DNA from: Chlamydiales bacterium
GTDB lineage: Bacteria > Chlamydiota > Chlamydiia > Chlamydiales > JAAKFR01
Length of the DNA: 32,000 nucleotides
Assembly (NCBI GenBank): GCA_041395025.1
Contig: JAWLBH010000001.1
Location: 1,020,001 to 1,052,000 of the forward strand
Direction of reading: 5' to 3'
Shown here: positions 3,229 through 8,332 of the stretch, piece after piece
Layout of the letters: the number at the start of each line of letters is the position of its first letter
Numbering within the stretch: position 1 is the first letter of the stretch
The notes under the pieces: generated by a model
What the model was told of the DNA's origin: nothing
Database searches by the model: none
Seen by the model: only the letters and a program-made list of their open reading frames with translations
Program-made: the position numbers and the translations under genes

Positions 3229-4401
3229 GTGGATCGAGCTATTGTGTCTCTTACACAGAATGTAAATCAAAATTCTTTTCTTATTCTTGGTCATACGCGT
3301 ACAGGTATGGGAGAAAGAGTCTTAGCATACAAGATGGAGAAACTCATCAAGGAGGCTGGATTTTCCACTTTTCCTACTATTGATCTGATCGATTTGATGG
3401 GAGAACTTTATGAACCGTATGGCTGGCTCAATTATGATTTAGCTGATGGAGGGTATTCCCCGATTGAGGGGCTCACGTCTCTTTCTTTGCCTAAAGCTCA
3501 AATTGCTCTTGTACTAAGTTGGTGTTTTGGGTTAGCAGCGCTTTTTGCAACGGATCTTTGTCATTCTCACTACGTTGTTGCAAAACTCTATGCTCACCAT
3601 CCTAATGAACGGATCTTACCTAAACTTTACGCACCTGCTCATCTACTCATTACCGAATCTCTCCTTGCTAATGAGCGAGGAGAGACCTATGGCCTTGATC
3701 AGGGGAAGATGCTATATCTTCCACATTGTTATGTGACGGATGATAAAGTAGAAAAATCAAATTTTGAGATCAGAAAGTCAAAAAAACGGCTGATTGGCAC
3801 AGTTGCGCGATTAGAATATGGAAAAAATTGTGAATTTGCTATTGAAGCTGTTCGTCGTCTTGTCGAAAAAGGAGAAGATGTTCTTCTTTATCTCAAAGGG
3901 GATTTTTGTGAAAAGAGCCCCTATCCTGCCTATAAAGGCTTTATGAAAAAGATCTTAGAAGTATACCAAGAAGAAGAATGGCTAATATGGGATTCCAGCT
4001 ATACACCTTTCCCTGATGTTTTAGCACTCTATAGACAATTTGATCTGCTTCTCCATCCTTCTGGAGCAGAAGGAGGAAGTCATGTGGTGGTAGAAGCCTT
4101 AGGATTGGGGATTCCTTGTATTGTGTTGAATTGTAGTACACATCCTTATTTATTTAAGGATCTAGTCACTTTTGTTAATACCACAGGAAAGATGTATGGA
4201 CATCAACCTGCTTTTTGTATTCCTGATTTGGAAGATCTTGTGAATAAGTTAAGCCAGGATCTTTCTCCTCCAGATCTTGCCCGTGTTTCTGAACGATTTG
4301 ACCCTGCAATAGCTCGAGAACGTATTCCTCTTCTTTTTGATCCTAATCCAGATAAGATCAAGAATCTCTATCAGAAGGATTGCAAACTTTATGGTCTCTA
4401 A
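3229..4401 (+). CDS. GT-B fold glycosyltransferase (family 1/4-like)
   Basis: 390 aa with a GTG start. The C-terminal half has the GT4-type layout: RLIGTVARLEYGKN..., LLLHPSGAEGGSHVVVEALGLGIPCIV (the E-x7-E / EAxxxGxP region). No signal peptide or TM helix. Confidence 0.75.
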   Translation: MDRAIVSLTQNVNQNSFLILGHTRTGMGERVLAYKMEKLIKEAGFSTFPTIDLIDLMGELYEPYGWLNYDLADGGYSPIEGLTSLSLPKAQIALVLSWCFGLAALFATDLCHSHYVVAKLYAHHPNERILPKLYAPAHLLITESLLANERGETYGLDQGKMLYLPHCYVTDDKVEKSNFEIRKSKKRLIGTVARLEYGKNCEFAIEAVRRLVEKGEDVLLYLKGDFCEKSPYPAYKGFMKKILEVYQEEEWLIWDSSYTPFPDVLALYRQFDLLLHPSGAEGGSHVVVEALGLGIPCIVLNCSTHPYLFKDLVTFVNTTGKMYGHQPAFCIPDLEDLVNKLSQDLSPPDLARVSERFDPAIARERIPLLFDPNPDKIKNLYQKDCKLYGL

Positions 4402-5356
4402 AAGTGTAGGGGTAATTCCTGGACCAAGGACCTCTTTTCTTGACCATCTCGCCCCCATTTGCTATCTAATGAATATTCCTCTCCATTGTTCGGATGAATG
4501 GGTGGCAACATGTGCTGCTCAATTTTATCCTGAAATCAAGATTATAGAGGGAGATTTATCCACTTACCAAACTTTTTATGTGGTCGAACCTTGCCGTTTA
4601 CATAGTCGTGCTGTTCAATTTGGAGACGCTGTTTACCATGGGCATTTTAAAACAATCGCAGGGTTTCATGGGAATCCTGATAAATTTCGTCAAATATTTT
4701 GGATTGAGCGTTATCTTGATGAGGATGTCATTTTAATTTATGGAGAGCATTTAGTCGATTATTTGAAGCAGAAGGGAATTTTCAAACGATTGAAAAAGAT
4801 CATACGGATTGGGAATTTGCGATATGCATTTTACAAACACCACCAAAATTTTTTTGATAGATTGCTTCACCCCCACTTTTCGCCGGATCCTCAAAAAAAA
4901 ACCATTCTTTGGGCACCCACATGGAGTTATCCTGACCCTTGTCAGGCTTTTTCGGCTTACCGTTCTATTCTCAATCAGATTCCTGAAGAATACCAAGTAT
5001 ATGTTAAATTGCATCCCTACACTTATCGTCTTTTTCCTGATCAGATAGTTCAGATGAAAGAAGAATATACAAAATTTCATTTTATTGATGAGATTCCTTT
5101 GATCTATCCTTTTCTTAACCAAGTAGATATTTATTTAGGAGATGAATCATCAGTAGCTTACGATTTTCTTGCTTTTAATCGTCCAATCTTTTTTTTAGGA
5201 AAAAAAGAGGTGAGTTGGGGAATCACAGTGAGGAATCCAAAACGTCTATTCCAAGAACTTGATCGACCAGATCACTTAGCAGAAGCGCGTCAAAAAATCT
5301 ATCATTACGTTTTTGGAGAAGAAGTAAGTTTAACACAATTGCAGAAGCAATTATAA
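4391..5356 (+). CDS. CDP-glycerol/ribitol phosphotransferase-like protein (TagB/TagF family, Glyphos_transf-like)
   Basis: The motifs KKTILWAPTWSYPD, YVKLHPYT and IYLGDESSVAYDFLAFNRPIFFLG match, as I recall them, the TagF hallmarks (V)ILYAPTWRD, (LRM)H and (LIT)DYSSVxFDY...RPIxFF. I prefer ATG 4391 (MVSKSVG...), which overlaps the upstream stop by 11 nt, over the track start at 4337, which would overlap by 65 nt. Confidence 0.7.
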   Translation: MVSKSVGVIPGPRTSFLDHLAPICYLMNIPLHCSDEWVATCAAQFYPEIKIIEGDLSTYQTFYVVEPCRLHSRAVQFGDAVYHGHFKTIAGFHGNPDKFRQIFWIERYLDEDVILIYGEHLVDYLKQKGIFKRLKKIIRIGNLRYAFYKHHQNFFDRLLHPHFSPDPQKKTILWAPTWSYPDPCQAFSAYRSILNQIPEEYQVYVKLHPYTYRLFPDQIVQMKEEYTKFHFIDEIPLIYPFLNQVDIYLGDESSVAYDFLAFNRPIFFLGKKEVSWGITVRNPKRLFQELDRPDHLAEARQKIYHYVFGEEVSLTQLQKQL

Positions 5357-5576
5357 AAGGAATGAGTTTTTCGGAATCCTCTTATATTCATTGACCATCT
5401 TGCCCATTGACATCTAATGATGGCTTTCATCTATTTTAACAACGAGTTTGGTGATTAAGGATCTACTTATCGTATAATTGAAAAAGCTTCTCATATTAGA
5501 TATGATCAAAATGAACAGCAAACATGTAGGATAGAGAGGAGGATCTCTTTAATACAACTCATAAAGGCCATTGAAG

Positions 5577-6566: not shown

Positions 6567-6579
6567 TAGAAATGTTTTT

Positions 6580-7344
6580 ATGAAAATTAGTTTTATCACT
6601 CCAACCGCTGATAGGCCTCACTTTCTTCAAGGACTCTATTCATTAGTTTTAAAACAAACAGTCTCTGACTGGGAGTGGCTTATTTACGATTCTGGTCATC
6701 ACCCTGTGACTTTCAAGGATTCACGAGTGATTTATATCCATCATGAATCGATAATCAGTATTGGAGCCAAGCGCAATCATTTGATTGCAAGAGCCTCAGG
6801 AGATGTGATTATCCATTTGGATGATGATGACTATTATGCTGCTGATTATGGAAATTTTATTCTTCAGCAGCTTGTTCACTATGATTTTTACACAGCACAT
6901 TCTTGGTTTTCCTATGATTTGAAATCAAAACAGACCTACTATTGGGCAACTGATGAAATAGCACGTACACAATTTATGATAGATGCTCTTTTGGGTATGC
7001 GTGTGCGAGAGATTGATTTTGGATCTGAGCAAAAATCCCAGGTCTCTATGCTTAACGAAAAAGGGCAAACTGGATATGGATTTTCCTATGCTTATCGAAA
7101 AGCTATTACAAAAACATGCTATTTCCAAGACAAAGATCTTTCTGAAGATCGAAGTTTTTATTTTGCTGTGAAAGCAGCTGGATGGACTATAGGCATGGAG
7201 AAGGATGCTACAGGAAGAGTTGTCCATGTAATACATGAGACAAATATATCTGGTGAATATCCTCAGTATCGCATTCCTCGCTTTCTCGCAGAGAAACATC
7301 TTCCTGATTTTTTCCACTACCTCTCTTCTTATCATGAAAATTGA
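6580..7344 (+). CDS. Family 2 glycosyltransferase (GT-A fold)
   Basis: MKISFITPTADRPHFLQGLYSLVLKQTVSDWEWLIYDSG, then IGAKRNHLIARASGDVIIHLDDDDYY (DxD region), a typical GT2 N-terminal domain. ATG 6580 is preferred over 6550, which overlaps the previous gene. Confidence 0.8.
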   Translation: MKISFITPTADRPHFLQGLYSLVLKQTVSDWEWLIYDSGHHPVTFKDSRVIYIHHESIISIGAKRNHLIARASGDVIIHLDDDDYYAADYGNFILQQLVHYDFYTAHSWFSYDLKSKQTYYWATDEIARTQFMIDALLGMRVREIDFGSEQKSQVSMLNEKGQTGYGFSYAYRKAITKTCYFQDKDLSEDRSFYFAVKAAGWTIGMEKDATGRVVHVIHETNISGEYPQYRIPRFLAEKHLPDFFHYLSSYHEN

Positions 7345-8332
7345 TTTCTTGGTCGCAGAGAATAGATACGGGTCAACACTCCATTTTGCAAAAGCTTTTG
7401 CAAAAGCACTTGAAAGAATGGGAGTCGATACGCGTCTTCATTGGATCGGTGAAGGCGAGTTTTTTCATGCTTTTCATCAAATTATGGCTGACCCACCAGA
7501 TCTTACCTGTTCATTTTCTAATATTCATCTATCTGGTCAACCTATTGGAGATCTGTGGCAAATTCCCCATCTTTCTTTATTAGTTGATCCAGCTATCTAT
7601 TGTCTCCCTCAGCTTCTTGGTCAGTATTCGTGGGTAAGCTGTGTTGATTATGGAGATCTCAAATTTTTACAAGAATTGAATTTTAAAAATGTTTTTTATC
7701 TTCCACATGGAGCAGATCGTAATCTTCTTACTCCACCGGGGAAAGAACGTCTCTATGAAGTGGTGTTTTTTGGGTCTTGTGTCGAATATCTCGTACAAGA
7801 AGAGATCGTTTTGCATGCTACGAACCGTGTCCTTTCCTCTCAAACCCTTTCTATTTTACAAGCCTTGATTGAATTGGGAATCCCTCAAGAACGCCTTGTC
7901 CATTATCATACTGAAGTGGATCTGTGTGTACGATTCTATGATCGTATCCGGCTACTCTCTGCTCTGAAAAGCCATGAAATACATATTTGGGGCCAGGGTC
8001 CCTGGAAAAAGTATCTTCCATATGCTACTATTCATCCACCAGTCTCTTTTGATCAGGCAATTAAAATCATGCAAAAAGCACAAGTGGTTGTAAATAGTTC
8101 CCCAAGATTTAAAAGAGGATTACATGAAAGGATTCTTTATGCTGCTCTTTGTGGAGCTGCTGTTCTAAGTACTCATGAAGGGGGATATTGTTATCAGTAT
8201 GGTAAATGGGAGGATCAACAATTTAAAGATTGGCAAGAAGTCGCATACAGACTACAGACTCAAGTCTTAAATGAACATACTTGGGACCATAGAGCTGCGA
8301 CTCTTTTAGAGTATTTTCATTTCCTTAAATAA
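7334..8332 (+). CDS. CgeB-like glycosyltransferase family protein (DUF3880 + Glyco_trans_1_2-like)
   Basis: MKIDFLVAENRYGSTLHFAKAF..., FYLPHGADRNLLTPPGKERLYEVVFFGS, IHIWGQGPWKKY..., QVVVNSSPRFKRGLHERILYAALCGAAVLS resemble the CgeB-type pattern as I recall it. ATG 7334 overlaps the GT2 stop (7342-7344) by 11 nt. The track start at 7235 is an unlikely 5' extension inside the GT2 gene. Confidence 0.65.
   Translation: MKIDFLVAENRYGSTLHFAKAFAKALERMGVDTRLHWIGEGEFFHAFHQIMADPPDLTCSFSNIHLSGQPIGDLWQIPHLSLLVDPAIYCLPQLLGQYSWVSCVDYGDLKFLQELNFKNVFYLPHGADRNLLTPPGKERLYEVVFFGSCVEYLVQEEIVLHATNRVLSSQTLSILQALIELGIPQERLVHYHTEVDLCVRFYDRIRLLSALKSHEIHIWGQGPWKKYLPYATIHPPVSFDQAIKIMQKAQVVVNSSPRFKRGLHERILYAALCGAAVLSTHEGGYCYQYGKWEDQQFKDWQEVAYRLQTQVLNEHTWDHRAATLLEYFHFLK

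What the first reader, a model, noticed from the sequence alone, without database searches (positions are those of the whole stretch)
3229..8332. Compact five-gene cytoplasmic glycosyltransferase / TagF-like cluster in a chlamydial genome, without export, polymerase or sugar-activation genes
Seen in sequence: five same-strand ORFs are packed with coupling-type junctions. ATG 4391 overlaps stop 4401 by 11 nt, ATG 6580 lies 13 nt after stop 6566, and ATG 7334 overlaps stop 7344 by 11 nt. The ORFs carry motifs of a GT4-type GT-B enzyme, a TagB/TagF-type CDP-alcohol phosphotransferase (ILWAPTW / HP / DESSVAYDF..RPIFF), a GT2 (DDDD region) and two mutually paralogous CgeB/DUF3880-like proteins. None has a signal peptide or TM helix. 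The window contains no flippase, ABC exporter, Wzy/Wzz, cytidylyltransferase or nucleotide-sugar synthase. Established knowledge: TagF-family enzymes build phosphodiester-linked polyol-phosphate polymers (teichoic acids, some Gram-negative capsules), and CgeB-type proteins are linked to spore-surface glycan maturation. Chlamydiae are known for a truncated Kdo-LPS, not for such polymers. Inference: the cluster may make a phosphoglycerol- or ribitol-containing glycoconjugate on a lipid or protein acceptor. A cell-surface product specific to one developmental stage is pure speculation. The cluster sits in the non-housekeeping block, flanked on both sides by Inc-like or small membrane-protein genes.
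Basis: partly seen in the sequence, partly recalled or inferred. Interest (0 to 1): 0.75.

Follow-up and report, generated by a model that had tools for sequence, protein, structure and literature searches.

The report
Chlamydial teichoic-acid-like glycan assembly operon
Five tightly packed genes in an uncultured chlamydia encode a teichoic-acid-type polyol-phosphate transferase and four sugar transferases, a gene set shared with other chlamydiae close to the pathogens, which points to an undescribed phosphate-linked surface sugar chain.

Summary
Five same-strand genes lie at 3229-8332, with exactly the junctions described.

- **Gene identities.** Pfam recovers GT4, TagF-like (PF04464), GT2 and one CgeB-like protein. 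The fifth gene (ORF3) is a divergent paralogue below threshold, and DUF3880 is not recovered.
- **The TagF-like protein.** It models as a bare GT-B core closest to TagF, Cps3D and Bcs3-CroT. It keeps both catalytic histidines of the family.
- **Where the cluster sits.** It is not an island. It holds a fixed position (rRNA operon, Yip1, cluster, TolQR, TPR, Hc1) in at least 17 species-level chlamydial genomes. One of these belongs to CC-IV, the sister clade of Chlamydiaceae.
- **Gene loss.** The fullest version, seen in five genomes, has six genes with two TagF paralogues. The window has lost TagF2, and other genomes have lost TagF1.
- **Likely donor.** In two relatives a CDP-ribitol-synthase-like gene (a TarI-like cytidylyltransferase fused to an SDR domain) is built into the cluster. 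This gene is widespread in chlamydiae that carry TagF-like genes.

The best reading is cytoplasmic assembly of a short glycosyl-polyol-phosphate glycan, with ribitol-phosphate favoured. The acceptor and the export route are unknown. Whether the window's own genome has a donor pathway is untested. I found no literature on this.

The parts
3229..4401 (+). GT4-type retaining GT-B glycosyltransferase (390 aa, GTG start)
   Evidence: Pfam PF00534 at 1.7e-15 and PF13692 at 3e-10. The sequence shows an R-x4-K motif (ARLEYGK) and an EX7E motif (AEGGSHVVVEA). Orthologues share 38-68% identity in 14 syntenic loci.
4391..5356 (+). TagF-like polyol-phosphate transferase, orthologue of the 'TagF1' paralogue (321 aa, bare GT-B core)
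   Evidence: PF04464 at 2.2e-10. The profile hits Bcs3-CroT, Cps3D, TagF and TarL in the PDB. The AF2 model has pLDDT 93.9, and its top Foldseek hits are TagF, Cps3D and Bcs3. H93 and H208 align with TagF H444 and H584 and are invariant in 68 homologues.
5357..5570 (.). 214-nt intergenic gap at the position where relatives carry the second TagF paralogue (TagF2)
   Evidence: L001, L004, L006, L007 and L008 have a TagF2 gene of about 1 kb here. tblastn and blastn find no remnant of it in the window. A promoter-like site at 5478-5506 is only a consensus match.
5577..6566 (+). ORF3: fast-evolving CgeB-like GT-B paralogue that lacks the RFKxGxHER motif of the ORF5 family. The mechanical ORF starts at TTG 5571.
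   Evidence: PF13524 scores only 18.8 bits, below the cut-off. It is a paralogue of ORF5. The motif loss was shown on an alignment of 17 ORF3 and 15 ORF5 sequences. ORF3 accompanies the TagF-like gene in nearly every variant locus, including the two-gene loci L013 and L016.
6580..7344 (+). GT2 (GT-A, inverting) glycosyltransferase, 254 aa, with a DDDD (DxD) motif
   Evidence: PF00535 at 5.3e-9. Orthologues share 41-69% identity in 13 loci. It is replaced by a second GT4 in L011 and by a transposase in L022.
7334..8332 (+). ORF5: CgeB-like (Glyco_trans_1_2) GT-B glycosyltransferase, 332 aa
   Evidence: PF13524 at 2e-12. The AF2 model has pLDDT 94.7, and its top Foldseek hits are GT4-type retaining GTs such as MshA, PimA, BshA, SenB and WaaG. 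JGI names homologues 'spore maturation protein CgeB'.
1334..1933 (-). Yip1-domain membrane protein, the conserved upstream boundary of the cluster
   Evidence: PF04893 at 8.5e-15. It is present directly upstream, on the opposite strand, in 15 related loci.
10219..12984 (-). 921-aa TPR protein with a YbgF/CpoB-like region, the conserved downstream boundary. Relatives have ExbD/ExbB (TolR/TolQ-like) genes between it and the cluster.
   Evidence: TIGR02795 at 6e-14, plus TPR Pfam hits. Synteny is shown.

Best explanation
The five genes form a real, translationally coupled operon. It encodes soluble or peripheral enzymes that assemble a teichoic-acid-like (glycosyl-polyol-phosphate) glycan on the cytoplasmic side.

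Shown:
- The gene at 4391-5356 belongs to the TagF-like family, with both catalytic histidines and the TagF/CgoT/CroT fold.
- It lacks the extra N-terminal domain of family polymerases. It therefore resembles single-addition enzymes such as TagB, TarF and CpsA.
- The GT4 (EX7E), the GT2 (DxD) and ORF5 (GT-B) look catalytically competent.
- ORF3 is a divergent paralogue that has lost the ORF5-family motif.
- The operon is vertically inherited at a fixed chromosomal site in a chlamydial clade that includes a CC-IV genome. CC-IV is the sister clade of Chlamydiaceae.
- The fullest form, seen in five genomes, has two TagF paralogues. The window has lost TagF2, while other genomes have lost TagF1.

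Inferred:
- The TagF-like enzyme transfers a polyol-phosphate from a CDP-polyol onto a sugar hydroxyl. The three glycosyltransferases add sugars from UDP-sugars.
- The polyol-phosphate is most likely ribitol-5-phosphate from CDP-ribitol. Two variant clusters embed a TarI-like-plus-SDR fusion gene, and the donor-site motifs are the same in all chlamydial TagF-like paralogues.
- ORF3 acts as a partner of the TagF-like enzyme or as an altered-specificity transferase.

Guessed:
- The acceptor is a lipid-linked sugar at the inner face of the inner membrane.
- The most economical candidate is Kdo-lipid A, which the general MsbA/Lpt route would flip and export. That would explain why no dedicated exporter is present.
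For: - Gene reality and coupling.
- TagF membership: Pfam above threshold. The profile search of the PDB gives Bcs3-CroT 1.5e-9, Cps3D 2e-8, TagF 3.5e-7 and TarL 1.7e-6. The HMM alignment places TagF H444 on window H93 (HGNPDK) and H584 on H208 (KLHP), and both are invariant. The same residues are reported to hold the pyrophosphate in CroT (H96, K101, H233; PMC10299916). Foldseek's top hits are TagF, Cps3D and Bcs3.
- Polymerases of the family carry an extra N-terminal domain (PMC10901376). This protein is a 321-aa bare core.
- Synteny and gene-content variants. L030 keeps a TagF1 pseudogene.
- Donor: L122 and L167 carry an IspD/TarI+SDR fusion inside the cluster, and it overlaps the GT2 start by 4 nt. 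It scores Pfam IspD 2e-44 plus adh_short 3e-32. Its best PDB matches are the ribitol-5-P cytidylyltransferases TarI, at 4.9e-35 and 2.7e-33.
- Homologues of this fusion abound in chlamydial MAGs.
- Active-site motifs are conserved across TagF1, TagF2 and the other chlamydial clades.
- Precedents: Cps3D/7D combine a TagF-like domain with a GT4-type GT-B domain to make poly(Gal-Gro-P), and the PF04464 enzyme CpsA adds glycerol-phosphate onto Kdo (PMC11666461).
Against: - No CDP-polyol synthase was found in the window, and I could not scan the rest of its genome. None of the large contigs carrying the full cluster appears among the top 120 homologues of the fusion gene.
- The cluster variant that embeds the fusion alongside a TagF gene (L122) carries TagF2, whereas the window carries TagF1.
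- There is no evidence on the acceptor. No initiating transferase, flippase, ligase or ABC exporter lies in the window or the conserved flanks.
- TagF-like enzymes have not been reported in LPS core assembly, as far as I know.
- Substrates cannot be read from sequence, and nothing here was tested biochemically.
Confidence: 0.65

Rival explanations
1. The cluster glycosylates proteins in the cytoplasm, for example secreted or surface proteins. This would resemble CgeB-type spore-crust glycosylation or the GtfA/GtfB pair of serine-rich adhesins, with ORF3 as the non-catalytic partner.
For: - All five proteins are soluble and no lipid-carrier or export genes are present.
- ORF3 and ORF5 form an active/degenerate paralogue pair, reminiscent of GtfA/GtfB, which appears among the fold hits for ORF5 (5e9t).
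- JGI names homologues CgeB.
Against: - No conserved candidate substrate gene accompanies the cluster. The Inc-like neighbours are specific to the window's lineage and have no homologues in 18 related loci.
- TagF-like enzymes with known acceptors act on glycans or lipid-linked glycans (PMC11666461, PMC10901376).
- Distant ORF5 homologues sit beside envelope-sugar genes: GT9 heptosyltransferase, RmlC/D, UDP-glucose pyrophosphorylase and Wza.
Confidence: 0.15
2. The TagF-like protein is not a polyol-phosphate transferase. Instead it uses a CMP-activated ulosonic acid (Kdo, which every chlamydia makes, or pseudaminic/legionaminic acid), so no CDP-polyol pathway is needed.
For: - There is a weak NCBIfam hit to the BFO_1060 glycosyltransferase family (3.5e-5, 23 bits against a cut-off of 200).
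- No donor-synthesis gene lies in the window.
- From my own knowledge, some PF04464-like proteins are proposed nonulosonic-acid transferases, and an HP motif is shared with CMP-sugar transferases.
Against: - The closest sequences and folds are all CDP-polyol enzymes: TagF, TarL, Cps3D-CgoT and Bcs3-CroT.
- No Kdo transferase or sialyltransferase appears among the top 50 fold hits.
- The H-x4-K loop that holds the pyrophosphate in CroT is conserved (PMC10299916).
- A TarI-like-plus-SDR gene is embedded in variant clusters.
Confidence: 0.08
3. In this particular genome the cluster is a decaying remnant and makes nothing.
For: - TagF2 has been lost.
- The ExbB/ExbD genes next to the cluster in relatives are replaced here by three small paralogous membrane-protein genes.
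- The genome is small (a 1.32 Mb contig), and no donor gene was seen.
Against: - All five reading frames are intact and keep their catalytic motifs: H93/H208, EX7E, DxD and the HER motif of ORF5.
- The 11-nt coupling overlaps are preserved.
- Identity to orthologues is 54-70% with no frameshifts.
- Loss of one TagF paralogue is common in otherwise intact clusters.
Confidence: 0.07
4. It is the ordinary LPS-core transferase set shared by all chlamydiae.
For: Soluble glycosyltransferases without a dedicated flippase are typical of LPS core assembly, which relies on MsbA (established knowledge).
Against: - The cluster occurs in only 17 of 79 related loci from species-representative genomes. The other chlamydiae carry only solo or tandem TagF-like genes in a different context.
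- None of the five proteins hits GT30 (WaaA) or GT9 families.
- No record from a cultured Chlamydia strain appeared among the hits; the two titled 'Chlamydia trachomatis' are MAGs.
Confidence: 0.03

Closest known systems
TagF-like capsule polymerases Cps3D/Cps7D of Actinobacillus pleuropneumoniae, together with the transition transferase CpsA (PMC11666461)
   Same: - They combine a TagF-like CDP-polyol phosphotransferase with a GT4-type (EX7E) retaining GT-B glycosyltransferase. Here the GT4 and TagF-like genes overlap by 11 nt.
- CpsA is a small PF04464 enzyme that adds a single polyol-phosphate onto Kdo. That acceptor type is also available in chlamydiae.
- Assembly is cytoplasmic.
   Different: - Here the activities are on separate small proteins with no fused TPR domain.
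- No KpsMT/KpsED exporter, no KpsS/KpsC and no LicD-type CpsC are present.
- A GT2 and two CgeB-like proteins are added.
- The donor is probably ribitol-based rather than glycerol-based.
Bcs3-CroT with Bcs1 of Haemophilus influenzae type b (PMC10299916)
   Same: - CroT is the best PDB sequence match (1.5e-9), and its H96/K101/H233 triad is conserved.
- Bcs1 is a CDP-ribitol synthase. From my own knowledge it has a cytidylyltransferase-plus-reductase architecture, as does the fusion gene embedded in L122 and L167.
   Different: - Bcs3 is a 1215-aa multi-enzyme that also contains a PRPP-dependent ribosyltransferase, a phosphatase and an SH3b domain.
- It sits in a group 2 capsule locus with an ABC exporter.
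- None of these features occurs here.
Wall teichoic acid pathway of Gram-positive bacteria (TagO/TagA/TagB/TagF or TarF/TarL, TagGH, LCP ligases)
   Same: - The enzyme family and chemistry of the key step are shared. The protein has the small size of the primase and oligomerase members (TagB, TarF).
- TarI is the closest solved relative of the cytidylyltransferase domain in variant clusters.
   Different: - The window and the conserved flanks contain no TagO/TagA linkage-unit enzymes, no TagGH exporter and no LCP ligase.
- The host is a diderm with LPS.
- The protein lacks the N-terminal domain of the polymerases.
Bacillus subtilis spore-crust cge genes (CgeB with the GT2 CgeD)
   Same: The PF13524 (Glyco_trans_1_2) family and the co-occurrence with a GT2. 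Both act from the cytoplasm without a flippase. This comparison rests on my own knowledge.
   Different: - The similarity is at family level only.
- DUF3880 is not recovered.
- There is no sporulation context.
- No TagF-like partner is known for the cge genes.

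Membership tests
TagF-like CDP-polyol phosphotransferases (Pfam PF04464) | Profile match above the curated threshold | tested here: met
   The score is 40.5 bits against a cut-off of 22.1. Only profile positions 157-291 of 367 are matched. All 75 homologues carry PF04464 except P0028.
TagF-like CDP-polyol phosphotransferases (Pfam PF04464) | The two conserved histidines critical to the family (TagF H444 as base, and H584) | tested here: met
   The HMM alignment places H444 on H93 and H584 on H208. 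Both are invariant in 68 sequences and in all chlamydial paralogue clades.
TagF-like CDP-polyol phosphotransferases (Pfam PF04464) | GT-B fold closest to solved family members | tested here: met
   The model has pLDDT 93.9. Foldseek ranks 1-17 are TagF, Cps3D and Bcs3, at E 2e-11 to 7e-9.
TagF-like CDP-polyol phosphotransferases (Pfam PF04464) | A CDP-glycerol or CDP-ribitol supply in the same organism | tested here: inconclusive
A TarI-like+SDR gene sits inside the cluster in L122 and L167 and is widespread in chlamydial MAGs.
TagF-like polymerases (TagF, TarL, CpsD type) | An additional N-terminal domain beside the GT-B core (PMC10901376) | tested here: not met
   The protein is 321 aa, and the model shows only the two Rossmann-like halves. 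It is better compared with the single-addition members of the family.
TagF-like CDP-polyol phosphotransferases (Pfam PF04464) | Phosphodiester-forming transfer demonstrated | not testable with these tools
   This needs an enzyme assay.
Complete wall-teichoic-acid or group 2 capsule system | An initiating transferase, ABC exporter (TagGH/KpsMT) and ligase or Kdo-linker enzymes linked to the cluster | tested here: not met
   The window's ORFs show none. The annotated cluster-bearing loci also show none.
CgeB-like glycosyltransferases (PF13524 Glyco_trans_1_2 / DUF3880) | PF13524 match above threshold | tested here: met
   ORF5 scores 47.7 bits against a cut-off of 25. ORF3 scores only 18.8, so it is not met for ORF3 itself, although its L004 orthologue carries the hit.
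CgeB-like glycosyltransferases (PF13524 Glyco_trans_1_2 / DUF3880) | DUF3880 N-terminal domain | tested here: not met
   Neither ORF3 nor ORF5 hits it at E<=1.
GT4 retaining glycosyltransferases | Glycos_transf_1 domain with EX7E and R/K phosphate-binding residues | tested here: met
   PF00534 scores 57.4 bits. The translation shows AEGGSHVVVEA and ARLEYGK.
GT2 inverting glycosyltransferases | Glycos_transf_2 domain with a DxD motif | tested here: met
   PF00535 scores 36.7 bits. The translation shows HLDDDDYY.
Chlamydial LPS core transferase set conserved across the phylum | Presence of the same genes throughout Chlamydiota, including Chlamydiaceae | tested here: not met
   The cluster is confined to 17 of 79 related GTDB loci. 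No record from a cultured Chlamydia strain appeared among the hits. Chlamydiaceae genomes were not searched directly.

The most novel reading that the evidence does not exclude
Most non-Chlamydiaceae chlamydiae, including the sister clade of the pathogens, make a so far unseen ribitol-phosphate-containing, teichoic-acid-like glycan. It is built in the cytoplasm directly on the Kdo of lipid A (or another inner-leaflet lipid) and exported by the general LPS route. This envelope component would have been lost when Chlamydiaceae reduced their LPS to lipid A-Kdo3.
Probability: 0.2. Interest if true: 0.8.

Novelty: new variant of a known kind. Interest (0 to 1): 0.6.

Why it matters
Chlamydial surface glycans are thought of as a truncated Kdo-only LPS. 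A conserved TagF-type pathway with a dedicated CDP-ribitol-synthase-like gene implies an undescribed anionic, phosphodiester-linked glycan on or in these cells. I found it in hundreds of environmental chlamydial genome and metagenome contigs, and as a consolidated operon in a clade that includes a member of the sister group of the pathogens.

Such a glycan could bear on several things:
- host attachment
- immune recognition
- envelope charge
- what was lost on the way to the human and animal pathogens

The idea is directly testable. MAGs assigned to cultured genera (Protochlamydia, Rhabdochlamydia) carry the related TagF-like genes. The enzymes are small and soluble, and their relatives have established assays with CDP-ribitol or CDP-glycerol.

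Tried and rejected
- **Single-sequence PDB search of the TagF-like protein.** It returned only designed Kelch-repeat proteins through a short repetitive match. I rejected these as spurious. The profile search gave the real relatives.
- **Exact-sequence contig look-up of the window's TagF protein.** It found nothing, so I could not read the rest of the window's genome.
- **A leftover of TagF2 in the 214-nt gap.** I looked with tblastn and short-word blastn and found none.
- **Promoter and terminator scan of 2900-8700.** It was no better than shuffles (18 promoter-like sites against 18.4 expected). I drew no conclusion from it.
- **Context of the solo and tandem TagF-like genes in other chlamydiae.** Their conserved neighbours are a GT4 plus, by reading the sequences, MutY-, MreC-, AspC- and GspD/E-like genes. 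None of this is specific to LPS or export. The YbhGFSR-like ABC system next to the solo gene in L005 was not among the families that recur around these genes.
- **TagD search.** I used a Bacillus TagD sequence recalled from memory and searched about 1.5 Mb of related loci. It found nothing. That query is unverified, so this is weak negative evidence.
- **CMP-Kdo transferase idea.** I considered it and ranked it low (see the rival explanations).
- **First metagenome scan with the single protein.** It found nothing. The alignment-based scan worked.
- **Literature.** Searches linking chlamydiae to TagF, TagB, CgeB, CDP-glycerol, glycerophosphotransferase, teichoic acid, ribitol or CDP-ribitol returned nothing relevant.

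Full report
**1. The observation**

The window is chlamydial.
- It begins with the 3' end of 23S rRNA (1-388) and 5S rRNA (528-642).
- By reading the translations it also carries Hc1, HtpG, HemN/E, Mfd and AlaS.
- The TagF-like and ORF5 proteins are 100% identical to proteins of an NCBI MAG named 'Chlamydiales bacterium', on a contig of 1,319,052 bp.

The five ORFs and their junctions are exactly as described.
- The starts at 4391, 6580 and 7334 match the gene calls in orthologous loci.
- The 11-nt start/stop overlap is a conserved habit of the cluster: it occurs at four of five junctions in L001.
- ORF3 most likely starts at ATG 5577, because orthologues align from there.

**2. What the proteins are**

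Pfam places four of the five above curated thresholds:
- ORF1: PF00534 (GT4 type).
- ORF2: PF04464 (TagF-like).
- ORF4: PF00535 (GT2).
- ORF5: PF13524 (the family that holds CgeB).

ORF3 reaches only 18.8 bits on PF13524. It is nevertheless a clear paralogue of ORF5, and its L004 orthologue carries the Pfam hit. DUF3880 is not recovered.

The TagF-like protein:
- A profile of 68 homologues hits only CDP-polyol phosphotransferases in the PDB: Bcs3-CroT, Cps3D, TagF and TarL.
- The HMM alignment puts the catalytic base H444 of TagF on window H93 (HGNPDK). It puts H584 on H208 (KLHP). Both residues are invariant.
- The published CroT structure assigns the equivalent H96, K101 and H233 to binding the pyrophosphate (PMC10299916).
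- The AlphaFold model (pLDDT 93.9) is closest to TagF, Cps3D and Bcs3.
- It is a bare 321-aa GT-B core. Polymerases of this family carry an extra N-terminal domain (PMC10901376). This enzyme therefore looks like a one-or-few-additions transferase such as TagB, TarF or CpsA.

The other proteins:
- The ORF5 model (pLDDT 94.7) is a GT-B fold nearest to GT4-type retaining enzymes.
- The GT4 shows EX7E and R-x4-K motifs, and the GT2 shows a DDDD motif.
- ORF3 has lost the RFKxGxHER motif that is invariant in the ORF5 family, but it has invariant residues of its own (FGxHxG, H240, W267). It is either a non-catalytic partner or an enzyme with an altered donor site.

**3. Relatives and evolution**

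A scan of species-representative genomes found 400 stretches encoding relatives of the TagF-like protein. The 80 best were all environmental chlamydial MAGs, a few of them mislabelled. They fall into two kinds of locus.

Type A is this cluster.
- It occurs in 17 GTDB loci, plus further metagenome contigs.
- It always lies downstream of the rRNA operon and a divergent Yip1 gene. It lies upstream of ExbD/ExbB, a TPR protein of about 1000 aa with a CpoB/YbgF-like region, Hc1 and a tRNA methyltransferase.
- The fullest form has six genes: GT4, TagF1, TagF2, ORF3, GT2, ORF5.
- The window keeps TagF1 and has cleanly lost TagF2.
- Eight other genomes keep TagF2 and lack TagF1. L030 still shows a TagF1 pseudogene.
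- Other variants drop the GT4 (L017, L019), replace the GT2 (L011, L022), or reduce to TagF2 plus ORF3 (L013, L016). The constant core is therefore a TagF-like gene plus ORF3.
- One type A genome, K940_chlam_9, belongs to Chlamydiae Clade IV, the sister clade of Chlamydiaceae (PMC11249467).

Type B is a solo or tandem TagF-like gene in other chlamydiae (MAGs labelled Parachlamydiaceae, Rhabdochlamydiaceae, Waddliaceae and others). It lacks the other four genes.

On a neighbour-joining tree, TagF1 and TagF2 are sister clades, separate from the type B clades. All clades share the same active-site motifs.

The cluster's GC content matches its surroundings. The Inc-like genes flanking it in the window have no counterparts in related loci.

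**4. The donor**

No activation gene lies in the window. Two relatives, however, carry one inside the cluster.
- In the metagenome contig L122, a 454-aa gene sits between ORF3 and the GT2 and overlaps the GT2 start by 4 nt.
- In L167 the same gene directly precedes GT2 and ORF5.
- The gene fuses an IspD-family cytidylyltransferase (Pfam 2e-44) to a short-chain dehydrogenase (3e-32).
- It scores 165.1 bits on NCBI's ribitol-5-phosphate cytidylyltransferase model, against a cut-off of 166.
- Its closest solved relatives are the TarI enzymes (4.9e-35).
- From my own knowledge, this is the architecture of the bifunctional CDP-ribitol synthase Bcs1.

The fusion is also common elsewhere.
- Its homologues are abundant in chlamydial MAGs. 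JGI names many of them 'ribitol-5-phosphate 2-dehydrogenase / D-ribitol-5-phosphate cytidylyltransferase'.
- Four lie on the very contigs that carry type B TagF-like pairs.
- In type B genomes the fusion sits next to RRF/PyrH/EF-Ts/S2/PBP and McsB. This is the same neighbourhood as the solo TagF-like gene in L005.

This favours ribitol-phosphate. Two caveats apply. L122 carries TagF2 rather than TagF1. None of the large type A contigs appears among the 120 listed homologues, so the window genome's own supply is unproven.

**5. Mechanism**

- Shown: the enzyme families, the catalytic residues, the coupling, the synteny, and the linkage to a CDP-ribitol-synthase-like gene in relatives.
- Inferred: the TagF-like enzyme adds ribitol-phosphate (less likely glycerol-phosphate) through a phosphodiester to a sugar. 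The GT4, GT2 and ORF5 add sugars. This gives a short glycosyl-polyol-phosphate unit of the kind made by Cps3D/7D, where a TagF-like and a GT4-type domain alternate (PMC11666461).
- Guessed: the acceptor. All the enzymes are soluble and no exporter travels with the cluster, so an inner-leaflet lipid that the cell already exports is the cheapest solution. CpsA shows that a PF04464 enzyme can use Kdo as acceptor (PMC11666461), and chlamydial LPS ends in Kdo.
- Supporting context: distant ORF5 homologues lie beside envelope-sugar genes, namely GT9, RmlC/D, UDP-glucose pyrophosphorylase and Wza.

Protein glycosylation, a CMP-ulosonic-acid donor, and decay of the cluster are ranked lower, for the reasons given under the rival explanations.

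**6. Novelty and verdict**

The enzyme families are known, and annotation pipelines already label these genes. Still, I found no paper that connects chlamydiae with TagF-like enzymes, CDP-glycerol, ribitol or teichoic-type glycans.

The finding is a real and conserved system. It is a new variant of a known kind, and it raises a testable question about the chlamydial envelope. Interest 0.6.

Noticed in passing
window 8533-10133: Three tandem paralogous small membrane-protein genes (185, 131 and about 120-130 aa) share a near-identical C-terminal motif (FRVVNVIRGVLEILQLGLLFLIPDLIVT). They have no Pfam or NCBIfam hit. They occupy the place where related genomes carry ExbD/ExbB (TolR/TolQ-like) genes, and they have no homologues in 18 related loci.
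   Followed up: partly
window 2119-3096: A 325-aa membrane protein appears to be built from two similar halves: RKRVEKVAGNLLVITLVACTVLGSLGVAGMFS and RKRIEKIGWNGLLISAVACAILGSLGASGVFS. It is inserted between Yip1 and the cluster, only in this lineage. It looks Inc-like and hits no family.
   Followed up: partly
L001 2776-6336 and L004 3851-7407: In related genomes the 23S rRNA gene upstream of the cluster is about 630 nt longer than the Rfam model. It contains a LAGLIDADG homing-endonuclease ORF (L001 4927-5400, L004 6001-6408). This points to an intron-like insertion of the kind I recall from Simkania 23S rRNA.
   Followed up: partly
L030 5831-6080: A TagF1 pseudogene with an in-frame stop and an internal deletion lies between the GT4 and TagF2 in the CC-IV genome K940_chlam_9. 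It is a fossil of the reciprocal loss of one TagF paralogue.
   Followed up: yes
L122 8467-9831 and L167 755-2110: A TarI-like cytidylyltransferase fused to an SDR domain (CDP-ribitol-synthase-like) is embedded in two variant clusters. L122 also has a DUF2334 gene on the opposite strand (7683-8570) that overlaps it by about 100 nt.
   Followed up: yes
L086 6821-9173: A tandem pair of ORF5-like (CgeB-like) genes overlaps by 11 nt on what looks like a chlamydial contig (it carries a Legionella_OMP-type porin). The pair is flanked by UDP-glucose pyrophosphorylase, GpsA, RmlC, RmlD, a GT9 heptosyltransferase and a Wza-like gene.
   Followed up: partly
L010 4344-5996; L022 3921-5042; L088 4421-5116: Several insertions or additions occur in cluster variants. 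L010 has a 550-aa multi-pass membrane protein that looks like a SulP/STAS anion transporter, lying between TagF1 and the ORF3-like gene. L022 has a TnpB-like transposase in place of the GT2. L088 has a HAD-family hydrolase with a hydrophobic N-terminus directly after ORF5.
   Followed up: partly
L005 11916-18255: In a Parachlamydiaceae MAG the solo TagF-like gene follows McsB. Downstream come BioY, a YbhGFSR-like ABC-2 efflux system and a TolC-like OEP. This arrangement does not recur around TagF-like genes in other loci.
   Followed up: partly
window 5478-5506: A promoter-like site (TTGAAA, 17 nt, TATGAT; 10 of 12 matches) lies in the gap left by the loss of TagF2, about 70 nt upstream of ORF3. 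Over the whole region, promoter-like sites are no more frequent than in shuffled sequence.
   Followed up: no
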